Source: a virus
Lineage: Duplodnaviria > Heunggongvirae > Uroviricota > Caudoviricetes
Virus record (IMG/VR): IMGVR_UViG_2681813146_000009
Location: 1-38,349 of that record
Direction: 5' to 3' (one strand)
Length of the DNA: 38,349 nt
Shown here piece after piece: positions 4,529 through 16,425 of this stretch (the stretch's first letter is position 1; each line of letters starts with the position of its first letter). The notes beneath the pieces are model-generated. The model ran no database searches. It had not been told where the DNA came from and was given only the letters and a program-made list of their open reading frames with translations. The position numbers and the translations under genes are program-made.

Positions 4529-4586
4529 AAAAAGGGCGGCAGAGCAGTCACGGAGTAAAACTGATACCGCCAAACGTCACCAGAAA
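4529..4586 (-). ncRNA. dicF: DicF small RNA (ftsZ-targeting sRNA), ends approximate
   Basis: Minus-strand sequence TTTCTGGTGACGTTTGGCGGTATCAGTTTTACTCCGTGACTGCTCTGCCGCCCTTTTT matches recalled DicF; ends in GC-rich stem plus T-run; lies between ydfC-like and dicB as in Qin. Confidence 0.85.
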
Positions 4587-11193: not shown

Positions 11194-11362
11194 TTTTGGT
11201 TCAACTAAATACAACGTCAGTTTTGAAGAATGGCATGAACTGTTAATGGACTATGCAGAGTTACGTGGTGGCAGTGCTGCTGATGCTGAAGCATGGCGTG
11301 ATGATTATGAAGCAGGAAAAACTCCGGTCGAAGCATATTGTGATGAGTGGGGCGATGAATGA
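11186..11362 (+). CDS. Hypothetical small acidic protein (58 aa)
   Basis: Manual translation MADFGSTKYNVSFEEWHELL...; GAGGAAGAA RBS; overlaps upstream stop. Confidence 0.45.
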   Translation: MADFGSTKYNVSFEEWHELLMDYAELRGGSAADAEAWRDDYEAGKTPVEAYCDEWGDE

Positions 11363-11616
11363 GCGAGGTTAATTATCAGGAAGGGCATGAAACGGCGGGG
11401 CAAGCAAAAACAGTGGCATGGCGATATCGCTACGTGAAAAAAAAGGCGTTACGGACTTTCAGGGGAAGTAGTGGTCTGGTGACTGGAAATATGTACCGAA
11501 AAAAGAGGATTGTAACGACAGGCCGAACTATGAAATTCAGGCCTTATTCACTGCCCCGCCAGTCCCGGTTACATCAGAAGAACTGGTTAAAGCTGTGCAC
11601 TTTTATGAACAACTAA
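11359..11616 (+). CDS. Questionable basic ORF; region may be a decayed gene
   Basis: ATGA overlap with upstream gene but highly basic low-complexity product; an alternative frame has protein-like sequence without start codon. Confidence 0.25.
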   Translation: MSEVNYQEGHETAGQAKTVAWRYRYVKKKALRTFRGSSGLVTGNMYRKKRIVTTGRTMKFRPYSLPRQSRLHQKNWLKLCTFMNN

Positions 11617-11845
11617 AACGCGAAAATCCACCAGCATCCGGAAACCTGATTACAGATTCCCAGATAAGGCAATGAGCTACCTGGCGCAGAACGGGCTGAT
11701 AAGTATGGGGAATGTTTTACGATGAATATTTAGACTAAAGAGTTTGTAACGCTATGTAAGTGATTTTTTCTGGTTTAGATATTTATATGTCCGGCCAAAC
11801 TGAGGTGTGTTTAAATGTAATTGCACATTGATTGTAGGAGGAATA

Positions 11846-12025
11846 ATGAAAAACGCATTGCAGTTTTTGTTTGTTGCGTTCTGGTTGTTCGTATCATGTA
11901 TGCCCATCATCTTCACAGCAAGGTATATGGAAAAAGTTGATGTTTTGATATTAATATTTGGATATATAAATGCCCTTTTTTTAGGGGTGTTCATGGCGGT
12001 CATGTGCATTGAATACTGGCGGTAA
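11846..12025 (+). CDS. Small hydrophobic membrane protein (59 aa)
   Basis: Strong AGGAGG RBS before ATG 11846; AT-rich; upstream of hok-family gene. Confidence 0.55.
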   Translation: MKNALQFLFVAFWLFVSCMPIIFTARYMEKVDVLILIFGYINALFLGVFMAVMCIEYWR

Positions 12026-12227
12026 ATACAGCGAACGCCATTGGTTTAGTTGGATATTTACTGTGCCGGACAAAAACGGTTTGCGGGGAAATCTTAGTTA
12101 AGTAGAATGACTGCGGGTGCTTGAGGCTATCTGTCTCAGGCATGAACACCAAAAGGCAGATAGAGAAAAGCCCCAGTTAACATTACGCGTCCTGCAAGAC
12201 GCTTAACATTAATCTGAGGCCATATCT

Positions 12228-12287
12228 ATGCGACACATAGAGATTAGCCTCTTACGGACCGAAAGGTCAAGGAGAAGCAGGCTATGA
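12228..12287 (+). CDS. Short leader ORF overlapping hok start (mok-like coupling element, tentative)
   Basis: 19-codon ORF with TGAGG upstream; stop overlaps hok ATG as ATGA. Confidence 0.3.
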   Translation: MRHIEISLLRTERSRRSRL

Positions 12288-12439
12288 AGCAGCAAAAGGC
12301 GATGTTAATCGCCCTGATCGTCATCTGTTTAACCGTCATAGTGACGGCACTGGTAACGAGGAAAGACCTCTGCGAGGTACGAATCCGAACCGGCCAGACG
12401 GAGGTCGCTGTCTTCACAGCTTACGAACCTGAGGAGTAA
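12284..12439 (+). CDS. hok: Hok/Gef family type I toxin (HokD/RelF-like)
   Basis: 51-aa ORF MKQQKAMLIALIVICLTVIVTALVTRKDLCEVRIRTGQTEVAVFTAYEPEE; AAGGAGAAG RBS. Confidence 0.85.
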   Translation: MKQQKAMLIALIVICLTVIVTALVTRKDLCEVRIRTGQTEVAVFTAYEPEE

Positions 12440-12509
12440 GAGACCTGGCGGGGGAGAAATCCCTCGCCACCTCTGATGTGTCAGGCATCCTCAACGCACC
12501 CGCACTTAA

Positions 12510-12534
12510 CCCGCTTCGGCGGGTTTTGTTTTTT
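12510..12534 (+). terminator. Rho-independent terminator after hok (CCCGC-TTCG-GCGGG stem-loop plus T-run)
   Basis: Hairpin with UUCG tetraloop followed by TTTTGTTTTTT. Confidence 0.75.
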
Positions 12535-12606
12535 CCTGGCATTCTGGTTTACAATTCGCACGTCAGCCTGAACACCTGACACCTGCTGCGCCAGCAGAGA
12601 AAACAG

Positions 12607-12879
12607 ATGGCGCACAAAACCAAATTTCACAATTCTGATACCGACCTTGCCATCCGGCATGAGCGGCGTTCACACGCATTTAAAACCGACTGGTACCAAC
12701 ACCCACCATGTACTGAAGAACAGGCCGAATGGCTGATTCATTCTTACCGCAGGCGCGGGTTCGAGGTTAAGAAAGCTCTCAGTCTCGACTATCGGCACTG
12801 GATAATCTCTGTCAGGCTGCCTTATTCCGAACGCCCACCACGTCCGTCCCGCACTTTCCAGCAACGGATCTGGAGGTAA
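12607..12879 (+). CDS. Small protein upstream of ydfU-like gene (Rem-like position, tentative)
   Basis: 90-aa ORF; synteny with Qin rem-ydfU by recall. Confidence 0.55.
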   Translation: MAHKTKFHNSDTDLAIRHERRSHAFKTDWYQHPPCTEEQAEWLIHSYRRRGFEVKKALSLDYRHWIISVRLPYSERPPRPSRTFQQRIWR

Positions 12880-12880
12880 C

Positions 12881-13939
12881 GTGCGGGTATTACTTAGACC
12901 TGTTCTGGTGCCTGAGCTTGGGCTGGTGGTCCTTAAGCCGGGCCGTGAATCCATACAGATATTTCATAATCCTCGAGTGCTGGTGGAGCCGGAACCGAAA
13001 AGCATGTGCGGCCTGCCATCCGGAGTCGTCCCTGCCGTTCGCCAGCCGCTGGCGGAGGATAAATCATTACTGCCATTTTTCAGCAATGAGCGTGTGATTC
13101 GTGCTGCTGGCGGCGCTGGTGCACTGTCTGACTGGCTGTTGCGCCATATTAAATCCTGCCAGTGGCCACACGGTGATTATCACCACAGTGAAACCGTCAT
13201 TCACCGTTATGGTACCGGCGCAATGGTGTTGTGCTGGCACTGCGACAACCAGTTGTGTGACCAGACCTCAGAATCACTTGAGCAACTTGCTCACCAAAAC
13301 TTGTCAGCATGGATGATTGACGTCATCCGTCACGCAATCAGCGGTACGCAGGAGAGGGAGTTATCGCTGGCCGAATTATCCTGGTGGGCGGTCTGCAATC
13401 AGGTGGCTGATGCGCTTCCGGAGTCTGTATTGTGTCGTTCACTGGGATTACCGGTGGAAAAAATCCGCTCCGTATACCGTGAGAGTGACATCGTACCGGG
13501 AGAACAGACTGCCACCAGCATACTGAAGCAGCGCACAAAAAATATTGCGCTGCCACTTCACGTCCACCAGCAACAGCCCCCACTCCAGGAAAAGACGTTA
13601 GTAAGCATCGCCGTTGATCCGGAGTCTCCGGCTCAGTATCTCCAGCGCCAGAAACCACAACGGGAAGAGATGCCTGTATACACGCGCTGGGTAAAAACGC
13701 AGAAATGCATGACGTGCGGTAATCAGGCAGATGATCCGCATCACATCATTGATCATGGCCTGGGAGGTATGGGAACAAAGGCTGATGATTTGTTTGTTAT
13801 TCCGCTGTGCCGTAAATGTCATAACGAACTGCACGCCGGGGTAAAAGATTTTGAAGAAAAACACGGCAGCCAGCTGTTGTTGCTGATTCGTTTTTTAATG
13901 CACGCGAGAAATTCGGGTGTCCTGAAGTGGAAAGCATGA
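12881..13939 (+). CDS. ydfU: DUF968/YdfU-like protein with C-terminal HNH-like Cys/His motif
   Basis: 352-aa ORF, GTG start with GGAGG RBS; CMTCG...HHIIDHG...CRKCHNELH motif. Confidence 0.7.
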   Translation: MRVLLRPVLVPELGLVVLKPGRESIQIFHNPRVLVEPEPKSMCGLPSGVVPAVRQPLAEDKSLLPFFSNERVIRAAGGAGALSDWLLRHIKSCQWPHGDYHHSETVIHRYGTGAMVLCWHCDNQLCDQTSESLEQLAHQNLSAWMIDVIRHAISGTQERELSLAELSWWAVCNQVADALPESVLCRSLGLPVEKIRSVYRESDIVPGEQTATSILKQRTKNIALPLHVHQQQPPLQEKTLVSIAVDPESPAQYLQRQKPQREEMPVYTRWVKTQKCMTCGNQADDPHHIIDHGLGGMGTKADDLFVIPLCRKCHNELHAGVKDFEEKHGSQLLLLIRFLMHARNSGVLKWKA

Positions 13940-15281: not shown

Positions 15282-15357
15282 GGCCCTTTAGCTCAGTGGT
15301 GAGAGCGAGCGACTCATAATCGCCAGGTCGCTGGTTCAAATCCAGCAAGGGCCACCA
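15282..15357 (+). tRNA. ileZ: tRNA-Ile2 (anticodon CAT, lysidine type; ileZ-like) with encoded CCA
   Basis: Manual cloverleaf: acceptor GGCCCTT/AAGGGCC, anticodon loop CTCATAA, T-loop GGTTCAAATCC; close to recalled E. coli tRNA-Ile2. Confidence 0.8.
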
Positions 15358-15457: not shown

Positions 15458-15531
15458 GCGTTGTTAGCTCAGCCGGACAGAGCAATTGCCTTCTAAGCAA
15501 TCGGTCACTGGTTCGAATCCAGTACAGCGCG
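15458..15531 (+). tRNA. tRNA-Arg (anticodon TCT; argN/argO-like)
   Basis: Manual cloverleaf: acceptor GCGTTGT/ACAGCGC, anticodon loop CTTCTAA, T-loop GGTTCGAATCC. Confidence 0.75.
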
Positions 15532-16165: not shown

Positions 16166-16390
16166 CCGGGTATCAGTTAGCGGGAGAAATTTTTAAATAC
16201 TTCACAATTCAGGCGGTTGACTGTTGTCTGGTTTGCGGGGAGTTTGTTAAAAGAAACTGGCATGGTGAATCCCCCTGTGCGGAGGGGCAATCAGCGAGTA
16301 GGTATATGGGATAATCGCGGATTCAGGTGCTGGTACTGAATTCACCGGGAGGCACCCGGCACCATGCAATGGCACATAGCGCCACTCTCC

Positions 16391-16425
16391 AGCCCCTCTC
16401 CGGAGGGGCTGTTTATATTGATTTT
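16391..16425 (+). terminator. Candidate rho-independent terminator (AGCCCCTC-TCCG-GAGGGGCT plus T-rich tail)
   Basis: 8-bp GC stem with tetraloop followed by GTTTATATTGATTTT. Confidence 0.5.

What the first reader, a model, noticed from the sequence alone, without database searches (positions are those of the whole stretch)
12026..12534. hok-family type I toxin with coupled leader ORF and a candidate antisense promoter
The 51-aa ORF is a Hok/Gef family toxin. A 19-codon upstream ORF stops on the hok start codon (ATGA), a mok-like coupling arrangement. On the minus strand a sigma70-like promoter (-35 TTGACC at 12265-12270, -10 TAATCT at 12241-12246) would fire an antisense RNA across the leader ORF start, as Sok does. 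Inverted repeats in the leader (CTATCTG...CAGATAG) and a UUCG-tetraloop terminator fit a hok mRNA. Here the locus sits upstream of the YdfU-like gene with a small membrane protein rather than relBE before it.
Basis: partly seen in the sequence, partly recalled or inferred. Interest (0 to 1): 0.5.

Follow-up and report, generated by a model that had tools for sequence, protein, structure and literature searches.

The report
Intact prophage hok/mok/sok toxin–antitoxin module

Summary
Window 12080-12534 is a self-contained hok/mok/sok type I toxin-antitoxin module in a Qin-like lambdoid prophage of E. coli.

- **Toxin:** the 51-aa ORF (12284-12439) is a Hok/Gef toxin whose coding DNA is identical to K-12 hokD.
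- **Leader:** it matches Rfam RF01794 at 106.7 bits. It can form both conformations expected of a hok mRNA: tac/fbi closed, and tac/ucb plus SD/dcb open.
- **Leader ORF:** the 19-codon ORF (12228-12287) is the positional homologue of mok.
- **Antisense promoter:** the minus-strand TTGACC-18-TAATCT sits exactly where the Sok promoters of R1-type plasmids and of phage 933W sokW sit. The sokW system has been validated experimentally.

Unlike K-12 hokD, which is fused behind relBE and keeps only about 17 nt upstream of its start codon, this copy has the full leader.

The one unusual feature is that mok stops on the hok ATG (ATGA) instead of overlapping hok. This type is ≥99% identical in 777 complete E. 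coli records. It fits published R1 data showing that mok needs to be translated only as far as the hok start.

Transcripts and toxicity were not testable here. Novelty: already known. Interest is low.

The parts
12080..12108 (+). hok promoter: weak -35 (TTTGCG/TTGCGG, 12080-12086) and -10 TAGAAT (12103-12108). The inferred +1 is G12115.
   Evidence: The -10 TAGAAT and the 5' GGGTGCTTGAGG are conserved upstream of 95 homologous loci. Their position is the same as TATGAT/+1 GGCGCTTGAGG in the R1-type locus. They fall below the threshold of the consensus scan. The transcription start is inferred, not measured.
12115..12534 (+). Full-length hok (mok-hok) mRNA, about 420 nt.
   Evidence: Homology blocks between 138 loci recurrently start at 12080-12113 and end at 12527-12534. 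The MFE is -175.1 kcal/mol with z -8.4. The window's MFE structure is 92.7% paired across 95 loci, against 36-44% when partners are slid. Forty-eight pairs carry double changes, against 20-30 in the slid controls.
12115..12126 (+). tac element (5' end GGGUGCUUGAGG). It pairs either with fbi (closed form) or with ucb (open form).
   Evidence: The MFE pairs 12115-12126 with 12489-12501. That helix is 97.8% paired in 95 loci. The alternative tac/ucb pairing, 12115-12122 with 12168-12174, comes from the Rfam consensus structure and is 99% paired but invariant.
12127..12163 (+).
   Evidence: Helix 3 is 95.6% paired, and 2 of its pairs have changes on both sides.
12168..12174 (+). ucb / anti-SD (AAGCCCC). 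It sequesters the mok SD in the closed form.
   Evidence: In the full-length MFE, 12170-12176 pair with 12214-12220, which contain the mok SD. In the Rfam structure the same bases pair with tac.
12165..12234 (-). Predicted Sok antisense RNA, about 70 nt. It has a 5' tail complementary to the mok start codon region, a long hairpin, and a UUUCUCU tail.
   Evidence: It folds at -31.9 kcal/mol with z -5.7. Its coordinates correspond to the annotated sokW of 933W, L003 1597-1667(-) (alignment). The 5' end is placed 7 nt downstream of the -10 box. The transcript itself was not observed.
12241..12270 (-). Sok promoter: -35 TTGACC (12270-12265), 18-nt spacer, -10 TAATCT (12246-12241).
   Evidence: Hexamers of the same kind occupy the same alignment columns in other loci: TTGCCT-17-TAACCT in 57 loci including 933W, and TTGCGC-17-TATCCT in the R1-type plasmid. 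Mutating the -10 of sokW abolished antitoxin activity (PMC8621323). The hexamers fail the consensus scan, with only 3 of 6 matches in the -10.
12216..12219 (+). mok Shine-Dalgarno sequence GAGG, 8 nt before the mok ATG.
   Evidence: It is invariant in all 95 aligned loci (G102 A103 G104 G105).
12216..12251 (+). Sok target hairpin. The outer stem is SD/dcb (GAGGC 12216-12220 with GCCUC 12247-12251). The inner stem (12222-12230 with 12236-12244) carries the mok AUG. The loop is CGACA.
   Evidence: The structure comes from the Rfam consensus. Among 95 loci there are 40 distinct sequence versions, and nearly all fold to the same two-tier hairpin (-9.6 to -16 kcal/mol). This is the most variable stretch among 73 close relatives, with entropy 0.94 against a mean of 0.18.
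12228..12287 (+). mok-type leader ORF, 19 codons (MRHIEISLLRTERSRRSRL). Its TGA overlaps the hok ATG (ATGA).
   Evidence: The sequence is. The aligned ATG is conserved in 94 of 95 loci, and the ORF is open to the hok ATG in 94 of 95, against 13/95 and 7/95 for the other two frames. The mok-to-hok distance is 56, 57 or 58 nt depending on the locus.
12271..12274 (+). hok Shine-Dalgarno sequence GGAG, 9 nt before the hok ATG and inside mok.
   Evidence: It lies within the conserved CAAGGAGAAG box shared with the R1-type locus.
12284..12439 (+). hok CDS, 51 aa (HokD-type toxin).
   Evidence: Pfam HOK_GEF 82.9 bits. PHROG 251 'MokW-like host killing', E 2.8e-33. The DNA is identical to the K-12 hokD CDS in the alignment. 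PGAP names it hokD.
12489..12501 (+). fbi element (CCUCAACGCACCC), the 3' partner of tac.
   Evidence: K-12 hokD retains it.
12508..12534 (+). Intrinsic terminator of the hok mRNA: 7-bp stem, UUCG loop, T-run.
   Evidence: Terminator scan. The stem shows double changes in 8 of 9 pairs across homologues (helix 22).

Best explanation
Window 12080-12534 is an intact hok/mok/sok type I toxin-antitoxin module carried in the early-right (nin) region of a Qin-like lambdoid prophage.

**Proposed mechanism.**
1. A weak promoter makes a stable hok mRNA of about 420 nt.
2. The 5' end of that mRNA (tac) is clamped to a 3' element (fbi). In this closed form an upstream box (ucb) hides the mok ribosome-binding site.
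3. Slow 3' trimming removes fbi.
4. The leader then refolds: tac pairs with ucb, and the mok SD pairs with dcb. This exposes a hairpin that carries the mok start codon.
5. Ribosomes that translate the 19-codon mok ORF run through the hok SD and stop on ATGA. This opens the hok start, or lets ribosomes re-initiate there, so the membrane toxin Hok is made.
6. A constitutive antisense RNA of about 70 nt (Sok) is made from TTGACC-18-TAATCT inside mok. It pairs with the mok start region, blocks mok translation and therefore hok translation, and marks the duplex for RNase III.
7. Because Sok is unstable and hok mRNA is stable, Hok is made when Sok synthesis falls, for example on loss of the element or on prophage induction.

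**What is shown here:** the presence, position and conservation of every sequence element, and the potential for both RNA conformations.

**What is inferred from R1 and hokW-sokW:** transcription start sites, 3' processing, translational coupling, RNase III cleavage, toxicity and the biological role.
For: - **Toxin:** Pfam HOK_GEF 82.9 bits. The CDS is identical to K-12 hokD.
- **Leader:** RF01794 scores 106.7 bits over 12115-12286 on the hok-sense strand. The same model hits the hok-sense leaders of 933W (113.5 bits) and an R1-type plasmid (87.2 bits), but does not hit K-12 Qin.
- **Homology to a validated system:** 90.8% nucleotide identity to 933W hokW/mokW/sokW over window 12069-12511. That system behaves as a type I TA dependent on the sokW promoter, RNase III and Hfq (PMC8621323).
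- **Closed form:** the full mRNA MFE pairs tac with fbi, z -8.4. Across 95 distinct homologues the structure is 92.7% paired, against 36-44% in slid controls. It has 48 pairs and 211 cells with double changes, against 20-30 pairs and 58-79 cells in the slid controls.
- **Open form:** 90.5% paired, against 33-52% in slid controls.
- **mok:** the ATG and SD are invariant, and the ORF is open to the hok ATG in 94 of 95 loci, against 13 and 7 of 95 for the other frames. This holds across three different frame relationships.
- **Published R1 mutagenesis:** mok must be translated up to the hok initiation region, and stop codons after the hok start are harmless (PMC9841398).
- **Sok:** promoter hexamers occupy homologous columns in all loci. 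The Sok candidate folds with z -5.7.
- **Persistence:** the window-type mok segment is ≥99% identical in 777 complete E. coli records.
Against: - No expression data were available. The Sok and hok transcripts, their ends, the 3' processing and the toxicity are all unobserved for this locus.
- Neither promoter reaches the consensus threshold of the scan tool. The Sok -10 matches TATAAT at only 3 of 6 positions and the spacer is 18 nt.
- MFE folding of a 3'-truncated mRNA (12115-12486) gave a 5' metastable-type hairpin rather than the textbook tac/ucb stem. The open form therefore rests on the Rfam consensus and on conservation. Its tac/ucb and SD/dcb pairs never vary, so they give no covariation evidence.
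- The window type has the shortest target-hairpin loop (5 nt, CGACA), because of a 2-nt deletion relative to the majority. This deletion removes the C-U-N-R loop motif seen in 933W. Read by eye against the literature's U-turn model, it could slow Sok binding.
- Chromosomal hok loci have been reported unable to mediate post-segregational killing (cited in bioRxiv 10.1101/2025.08.07.668861).
Confidence: 0.85

Rival explanations
1. The module is structurally intact but physiologically silent or strongly attenuated. It would be a passenger copy that is transcribed but never kills, as has been reported for chromosomal hok loci.
For: Chromosomal hokA, hokB and hokC loci were reported unable to mediate post-segregational killing or to respond to rifampicin (cited in bioRxiv 10.1101/2025.08.07.668861). 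Both promoters are weak matches to consensus. The target loop is shortened to 5 nt.
Against: Every regulatory element is conserved, with compensatory changes. The toxin ORF is intact and identical to HokD. The 91%-identical hokW-sokW locus is toxic when sokW is silenced, and it contributes to phage release (PMC8621323). The type persists unchanged in 777 genomes.
Confidence: 0.12
2. The 19-codon leader ORF is a frameshift lesion of mok: a 2-nt deletion after codon 1 plus a 1-nt insertion near the hok SD. This lesion would weaken or abolish coupling, leaving hok poorly translated.
For: Most relatives have 57 nt (in frame, 70-aa Mok) or 58 nt (+1 frame, 68 codons). The window type differs from them by two indels.
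Against: The ORF still runs through the hok SD and stops on the hok ATG. R1 mutagenesis shows that translation only up to the hok initiation region is required (PMC9841398). With the majority's spacing, the window's CATAGAG would put a TAG in frame, so the deletion keeps the ORF open (sequence). The type occurs on at least three different leader backgrounds (L043, L083 and the window group). It is present in 777 genomes.
Confidence: 0.05
3. The leader ORF and the antisense hexamers are chance features next to a hok gene that is simply co-transcribed with its neighbours, as hokD is with relBE in K-12.
For: A 19-codon open frame and an 8-of-12 promoter match are each unremarkable on their own. 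K-12 hokD is indeed co-transcribed with relBE (PMC3598666).
Against: The features are positionally homologous to R1 and 933W elements. There is an RF01794 hit. The frame is open in 94 of 95 loci, against 7-13 of 95 for the control frames. The module boundaries are sharp, at 12080 and 12534.
Confidence: 0.01

Closest known systems
hokW/mokW/sokW of Stx2 phage 933W and Sakai prophage Sp5 (AF125520; PMC8621323)
   Same: It shares 90.8% nucleotide identity over the whole module and has the same order of promoter, tac, ucb, Sok, mok, hok, fbi and terminator. Both sit in lambdoid phages. The Hok proteins are identical except near the C-terminus. Its sokW promoter occupies the same columns.
   Different: In 933W, mokW is in frame with hokW (57 nt upstream, 70 aa) and its sokW promoter is TTGCCT-17-TAACCT. 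Here mok is 19 codons ending on ATGA and the promoter is TTGACC-18-TAATCT. The target-hairpin loop and stem sequences differ. The 3' terminator of 933W is not homologous beyond 12511. The flanking genes differ.
hokD (relF) of E. coli K-12, in the relB-relE-hokD operon of cryptic prophage Qin
   Same: The hok CDS, 3' UTR, fbi and terminator are identical or nearly so (98.9% over 12270-12533). The prophage neighbourhood is the same, with a ydfU homologue downstream (79% aa identity). PGAP gives the same name.
   Different: K-12 homology starts only about 17 nt before the hok ATG, and relE lies upstream of that point. K-12 therefore has no hok promoter, tac, ucb, mok start or Sok gene, and gives no RF01794 hit. 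There hokD is co-transcribed with relBE (PMC3598666). The gene between hok and ydfU is unrelated to rem.
hok/sok (parB) of plasmid R1, the paradigm type I TA system
   Same: The architecture is the same and the sequence boxes are conserved: GCTTGAGGCT at +1, GGCAGA-AG...AGCCCC, GAGGC, the mok ATG, TAGCCTCTTAC, CAAGGAGAAG and the hok ATG. It matches the same Rfam model. The mok start lies 56-58 nt before hok.
   Different: The Hok protein is only distantly similar; PMC8621323 reports 44% identity between HokW and R1 Hok. The Sok-terminator hairpin is about 21 nt longer here. R1 mok is about 70 codons and overlaps hok, whereas here it stops at the hok ATG. R1 hok/sok is on a plasmid and this module is in a prophage.

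Membership tests
[quoted passage not shown] | A toxin ORF of about 50 aa in the Hok/Gef family. | tested here: met
   PF01848 scores 82.9 bits against a cut-off of 22, E 1.2e-23, covering residues 6-47. PHROG 251, E 2.8e-33.
[quoted passage not shown] | A conserved hok mRNA 5' leader (sequence plus structure) running from +1 to the hok AUG. | tested here: met
   RF01794 scores 106.7 bits against a gathering score of 59, matching the full model 1-157 at 12115-12286(+). The positive controls 933W and the R1-type plasmid hit on the same strand, and K-12 hokD does not hit.
[quoted passage not shown] | A mok leader ORF with its own SD, starting about 57 nt upstream and translated through the hok initiation region. 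| tested here: met
   ATG at 12228 with GAGG 8 nt upstream. The ORF is open for 19 codons, to a TGA overlapping the hok ATG. The aligned ORF is open to the hok ATG in 94 of 95 loci, against 13 and 7 of 95 for the other frames. It departs from canonical mok by not overlapping the body of hok. Translation itself was not tested.
[quoted passage not shown] | A cis-encoded antisense Sok RNA whose promoter lies inside the 5' part of mok and which covers the mok initiation region. | tested here: inconclusive
   The hexamers TTGACC-18-TAATCT sit at columns homologous to the R1-type and 933W Sok promoters. The predicted RNA of about 70 nt folds with z -5.7 and matches the annotated sokW coordinates. 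The hexamers fail the consensus scan, and no transcript data were available.
[quoted passage not shown] | Long-range tac/fbi pairing between the 5' and 3' ends of the full-length mRNA. | tested here: met
   In the MFE, 12115-12126 pair with 12489-12501. The helix is 97.8% paired in 95 loci, and 2 pairs change on both sides.
[quoted passage not shown] | An alternative open conformation (tac/ucb and mok SD/dcb) forming the Sok target hairpin. | tested here: inconclusive
   The pairing potential is present and 99-100% conserved, and the target hairpin is preserved through 40 sequence versions. However, the tac/ucb and SD/dcb pairs never vary, so they give no covariation. The MFE of a truncated RNA did not reproduce tac/ucb.
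[quoted passage not shown] | 3' processing of hok mRNA, RNase III cleavage of the Sok-hok duplex, and killing when Sok decays. | not testable with these tools
   These are known for R1 (PMC9841398) and partly for hokW-sokW (PMC8621323). Nothing could be measured for this locus.
HokD as defined by the K-12 relBE-hokD (relBEF) operon | A HokD protein sequence. | tested here: met
   The CDS is identical to K-12 hokD in the alignment. PGAP names it HokD. The NCBIfam Hok subfamily HMM scores only 48.5 bits against a cut-off of 73, so the name does not come from that model.
HokD as defined by the K-12 relBE-hokD (relBEF) operon | The gene lies directly downstream of relE, is co-transcribed with relBE, and has no mok or sok of its own. 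| tested here: not met
   No relBE lies upstream here. A full leader, mok and the Sok promoter are present instead.

The most novel reading that the evidence does not exclude
The prophage hok loci may form a set of orthogonal 'specificity types'. Among near-identical modules, variation is concentrated in the hairpin around the invariant mok AUG, which is also the 5' end of Sok. The fold is kept by compensatory changes, and the indels there shift mok through all three frame relationships (56, 57 and 58 nt). The window's 19-codon mok ending in ATGA would then be a distinct, fully functional termination-reinitiation coupling mode. The hypervariability would reflect diversifying selection, so that the Sok RNAs of co-resident prophages do not cross-neutralise each other's hok mRNAs.
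Probability: 0.3. Interest if true: 0.35.

Novelty: already known. Interest (0 to 1): 0.15.

Why it matters
It matters little as a discovery. hok/sok is the textbook type I toxin-antitoxin system, prophage copies (hokW-sokW) have been characterised, and this exact sequence is annotated as hokD in many genomes.

It is still useful in three small ways.

1. It shows what the K-12 hokD locus looked like before it was fused behind relBE. RefSeq annotation of such loci names only the toxin and omits mok and Sok.
2. The natural 56/57/58-nt mok frame polymorphism, including a stand-alone 19-codon mok, is an evolutionary replicate of the R1 mutagenesis result that mok translation matters and the Mok peptide does not.
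3. The hypervariable Sok-target hairpin is a testable candidate for antisense specificity switching among co-resident prophages.

Tried and rejected
- **Consensus promoter scan of 11700-12700.** It found no sigma-70-like site, where shuffles give 1.9. It therefore neither supports nor excludes the hok and Sok promoters, and I relied on positional homology instead.
- **MFE folding of a 3'-truncated mRNA (12115-12486).** This was meant to reproduce the active conformation. It gave a 5' metastable-type hairpin and no tac/ucb stem, so it does not demonstrate the switch.
- **Is the 90-aa ORF after hok the K-12 rem gene?** There is no similarity. It belongs to PHROG 1212, of unknown function.
- **The upstream small ORF.** It has no Pfam, PHROG or NCBIfam hit. 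It accompanies the hok module in only 18 of the fetched loci, so it is not part of the system.
- **NCBIfam scan of Hok.** It was below cut-off, so the PGAP name 'HokD' must rest on sequence identity rather than on that HMM.
- **Literature searches** for a described short mok, or for an explicit statement on the truncation of K-12 hokD. They found nothing specific in the held library. Pedersen & Gerdes 1999 is not held.
- **Do co-resident copies in one genome always differ in the target hairpin?** Too few multi-copy genomes were among the fetched loci, so this was not pursued.
- **Not used:** the large protein searches and structure prediction, because the family assignment was already unambiguous.
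Full report
**1. What is in the sequence**

- The 51-aa ORF at 12284-12439 matches Pfam HOK_GEF at 82.9 bits, E 1.2e-23, and PHROG 251 'MokW-like host killing'.
- ATG 12228 opens a 19-codon frame (MRHIEISLLRTERSRRSRL). Its TGA at 12285-12287 overlaps the hok ATG at 12284-12286.
- On the minus strand, TTGACC (12270-12265) and TAATCT (12246-12241) are separated by 18 nt.
- A 7-bp stem with a UUCG loop and a T-run lies at 12508-12534.
- Rfam finds its family RF01794 ('sok') at 12115-12286 on the plus strand, at 106.7 bits against a gathering score of 59.
- The same scan shows DicF, STnc100 and two tRNAs elsewhere in the window. These are typical contents of a lambdoid prophage.

**2. Where it comes from and what is annotated**

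Window 11800-12900 is 100% identical to many complete E. coli chromosomes, and 1,052 genomes hold at least 80% of it. In strain MCJCHV-1 the neighbourhood runs in this order: dicB, ydfC, a cI-like repressor, cro, ydaT, replication genes, then hokD, a DUF968 (YdfU-like) gene, rusA, the Q antiterminator and two tRNAs. This is a Qin-like lambdoid prophage, with hok in the early-right (nin) region and in the same orientation as cro and Q. PGAP annotates only the toxin CDS. It annotates no mok and no Sok.

The DUF968 protein is 79% identical to K-12 YdfU. The 90-aa ORF between hok and that gene is unrelated to K-12 Rem.

**3. Relation to K-12 hokD**

In K-12 the order is relB-relE-hokD-rem-ydfU. 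Aligned to the window, K-12 is essentially identical from about 12267/12270 to 12533, which covers the hok SD, CDS, 3' UTR, fbi and terminator. Upstream of that point K-12 carries relE and the homology is lost.

The K-12 Qin segment gives no RF01794 hit, whereas the window, phage 933W and an R1-type plasmid all do. K-12 hokD is co-transcribed with relBE (PMC3598666). The window therefore holds the complete form of the locus, of which K-12 keeps only the 3' two-thirds. Five other fetched loci share the K-12 breakpoint.

**4. Relation to characterised hok/sok systems**

- **Phage 933W.** It carries annotated mokW, hokW and sokW (AF125520). The module is 90.8% identical to window 12069-12511.
- **hokW-sokW of Sp5.** It was shown to be a type I TA system. 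HokW is toxic, and a locus with a mutated sokW -10 box arrests growth. The antitoxin effect partly needs RNase III and Hfq. After mitomycin C, sokW falls and HokW rises, which aids phage release (PMC8621323).
- **R1-type hok/sok plasmid locus.** A three-way alignment shows the same conserved boxes in the same order: the 5' GCTTGAGGCT, GGCAGA.AG...AGCCCC, GAGGC, the mok ATG, TAGCCTCTTAC, CAAGGAGAAG and the hok ATG.
- **Sok coordinates.** Annotated sokW (L003 1597-1667, minus strand) maps to window positions of about 12165-12234.
- **A caution on the Rfam name.** Although RF01794 is called 'sok', it matches the hok-sense strand from the mRNA 5' end to the hok AUG in all three loci. It is evidence for the hok leader and not, in itself, for the antisense RNA.

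**5. RNA structure**

- **Closed form.** The 420-nt mRNA (12115-12534) folds at -175.1 kcal/mol, z -8.4. Its 5' GGGUGCUUGAGG is paired to CCUCAACGCACCC at 12489-12501, which is the tac/fbi clamp. AGCCCC (ucb) is paired to the mok SD.
- **Comparative support.** I aligned 95 distinct homologous modules: 73 close relatives, more distant Escherichia, Kluyvera, Photorhabdus, Erwinia and other copies, and the R1-type locus. On this alignment the window's MFE structure is 92.7% paired, against 36-44% when partners are slid. It has 48 pairs and 211 cells changed on both sides, against 20-30 pairs and 58-79 cells in the slid controls. No shuffle of 500 reached the observed values. The tac/fbi helix is 97.8% paired.
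- **Open form.** The Rfam consensus gives the alternative conformation: tac/ucb (12115-12122 with 12168-12174), SD/dcb (12216-12220 with 12247-12251), and an inner hairpin carrying the mok AUG. It is 90.5% paired, against 33-52% slid. Its tac/ucb and SD/dcb pairs never vary, so they are uninformative.
- **Truncated RNA.** Folding a 3'-truncated RNA did not by itself reproduce tac/ucb.
- **Sok candidate.** The segment 12234 to 12160 on the minus strand forms a 5' tail, a long hairpin and a U-rich tail, at -31.9 kcal/mol, z -5.7.

**6. The leader ORF**

The aligned ATG and its GAGG are invariant. The frame from that ATG stays open at least to the hok ATG in 94 of 95 loci, against 13 and 7 of 95 for the other two frames.

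The distance from the mok ATG to the hok ATG takes three values:

| Distance | Frame relationship | Occurrence in the 95-locus alignment |
|---|---|---|
| 57 nt | In frame; Mok is an N-extended Hok of about 70 aa | Most loci, including 933W and the R1-type plasmid |
| 58 nt | +1 frame; about 68 codons | A minority |
| 56 nt | 19 codons; stop on ATGA | 13 loci, including the window |

R1 itself has 58 nt, by the numbering in PMC9841398. [quoted passage not shown] In other words, only translation up to the hok initiation region is required.

The window's short mok satisfies that requirement, because it reads through the hok SD at 12271-12274 and terminates on the hok ATG. It is not a rare lesion. 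A 91-nt segment spanning it is ≥99% identical in 777 complete E. coli records, and it occurs on several leader backgrounds.

**7. Promoters**

- **hok.** The -10 TAGAAT (12103-12108) is conserved in nearly all homologues. It lies 7 nt upstream of the conserved 5' GGG.
- **Sok.** The hexamers occupy the same columns everywhere: TTGCCT-17-TAACCT in 57 loci including 933W, TTGACC-18-TAATCT in the window type, and TTGCGC-17-TATCCT in the R1 type.
- **Limit.** Neither promoter passes the scan tool's consensus threshold. The promoter calls therefore rest on homology to experimentally defined promoters, not on the strength of the motif.

**8. Hypervariable recognition hairpin**

Among the 73 close relatives, the most variable 10 columns of the module are 12231-12239, with mean entropy 0.94 against 0.18 overall. 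A second variable patch lies at 12221-12227. Together they flank the invariant mok ATG.

The 95 loci contain 40 different versions of the SD-to-dcb segment. Nearly all fold into the same two-tier hairpin with the AUG in the 5' arm, and the window has the shortest loop at 5 nt. This segment is also the 5' end of Sok. The pattern fits selection for distinct Sok-hok specificities, but I could not test that.

**9. Verdict**

The feature is a complete member of the hok/sok family, closest to hokW-sokW. It is the untruncated counterpart of K-12 hokD.

The mechanism is inferred from R1 and Sp5. What is shown here is the presence, placement and evolutionary conservation of each element. Transcripts, processing, coupling and toxicity remain untested for this locus.

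Novelty is 'already known' and interest is low. The stand-alone 19-codon mok and the hypervariable target hairpin are the only points worth a follow-up.

Noticed in passing
window 12422-12425 (TACG; Tyr47 codon TAC of hok): The hok Tyr47 codon lies in a TACG motif, the TadA A-to-I editing motif. The TACGAA columns are invariant in all 95 aligned hok loci, including the R1 type. Editing of hokD at this Tyr to Cys has been reported in K-12 (PMC5630033), so this copy is probably recoded in the same way.
   Followed up: partly
window 11846-12025 (+): An unannotated 59-aa strongly hydrophobic ORF (MKNALQFLFVAFWLF...) sits in an AT-rich segment just upstream of the hok module, preceded by AGGAGG. 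It is intact in 18 of the 19 fetched loci that hold it, and the substitutions are conservative. It has no Pfam, PHROG or NCBIfam hit and PGAP does not annotate it. It is not part of the hok module, because homology between loci breaks at about 12080.
   Followed up: partly
window 12481-12660 (-): A 59-aa ORF antisense to the hok 3' UTR (fbi and terminator) is annotated as a hypothetical protein in RefSeq (WP_001112736.1). It matches PHROG 2947 at E 1.3e-44. Its conservation may simply reflect the conserved hok RNA structure on the other strand.
   Followed up: no
window 12115-12286; L003 1547-1721; L139 332-503: Rfam RF01794 is named 'sok antitoxin', but it matches the hok-sense strand from the mRNA 5' end to the hok AUG. 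This holds in the window, in 933W (where sokW is annotated on the opposite strand) and in an R1-type plasmid. A hit to this family marks the hok leader, not the strand of the antisense RNA.
   Followed up: yes
window 12221-12243 and homologous columns of alignment A1: A hypervariable stretch flanks the invariant mok ATG in otherwise 95%-identical modules. There are 40 sequence versions that all keep the same hairpin. The indels here also set the mok frame (56, 57 or 58 nt).
   Followed up: partly
L100 (Acinetobacter idrijaensis, 275-bp contig), L105 (Xanthomonas pisi, 431-bp contig), L138 (MAG), PP818812 (Actinobacillus phage): E. coli-type hok modules that are 91-100% identical turn up on very short contigs of unrelated genera and in an 'Actinobacillus phage' record. 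The short contigs are most likely E. coli contamination of those assemblies.
   Followed up: no
window 11359-11675 (+): The gene upstream of the AT-rich segment is annotated as a frameshifted pseudogene with an internal stop in the identical RefSeq genome. The same holds in another strain. This suggests the prophage region is partly decayed.
   Followed up: no
window 4534-4585 (-), 15282-15354 (+), 15458-15531 (+), 16231-16420 (+): DicF sRNA, two tRNA genes (annotated tRNA-Ile and tRNA-Arg in the identical genome) and the STnc100 sRNA are present. They confirm a Qin/DicF-type lambdoid prophage context.
   Followed up: no
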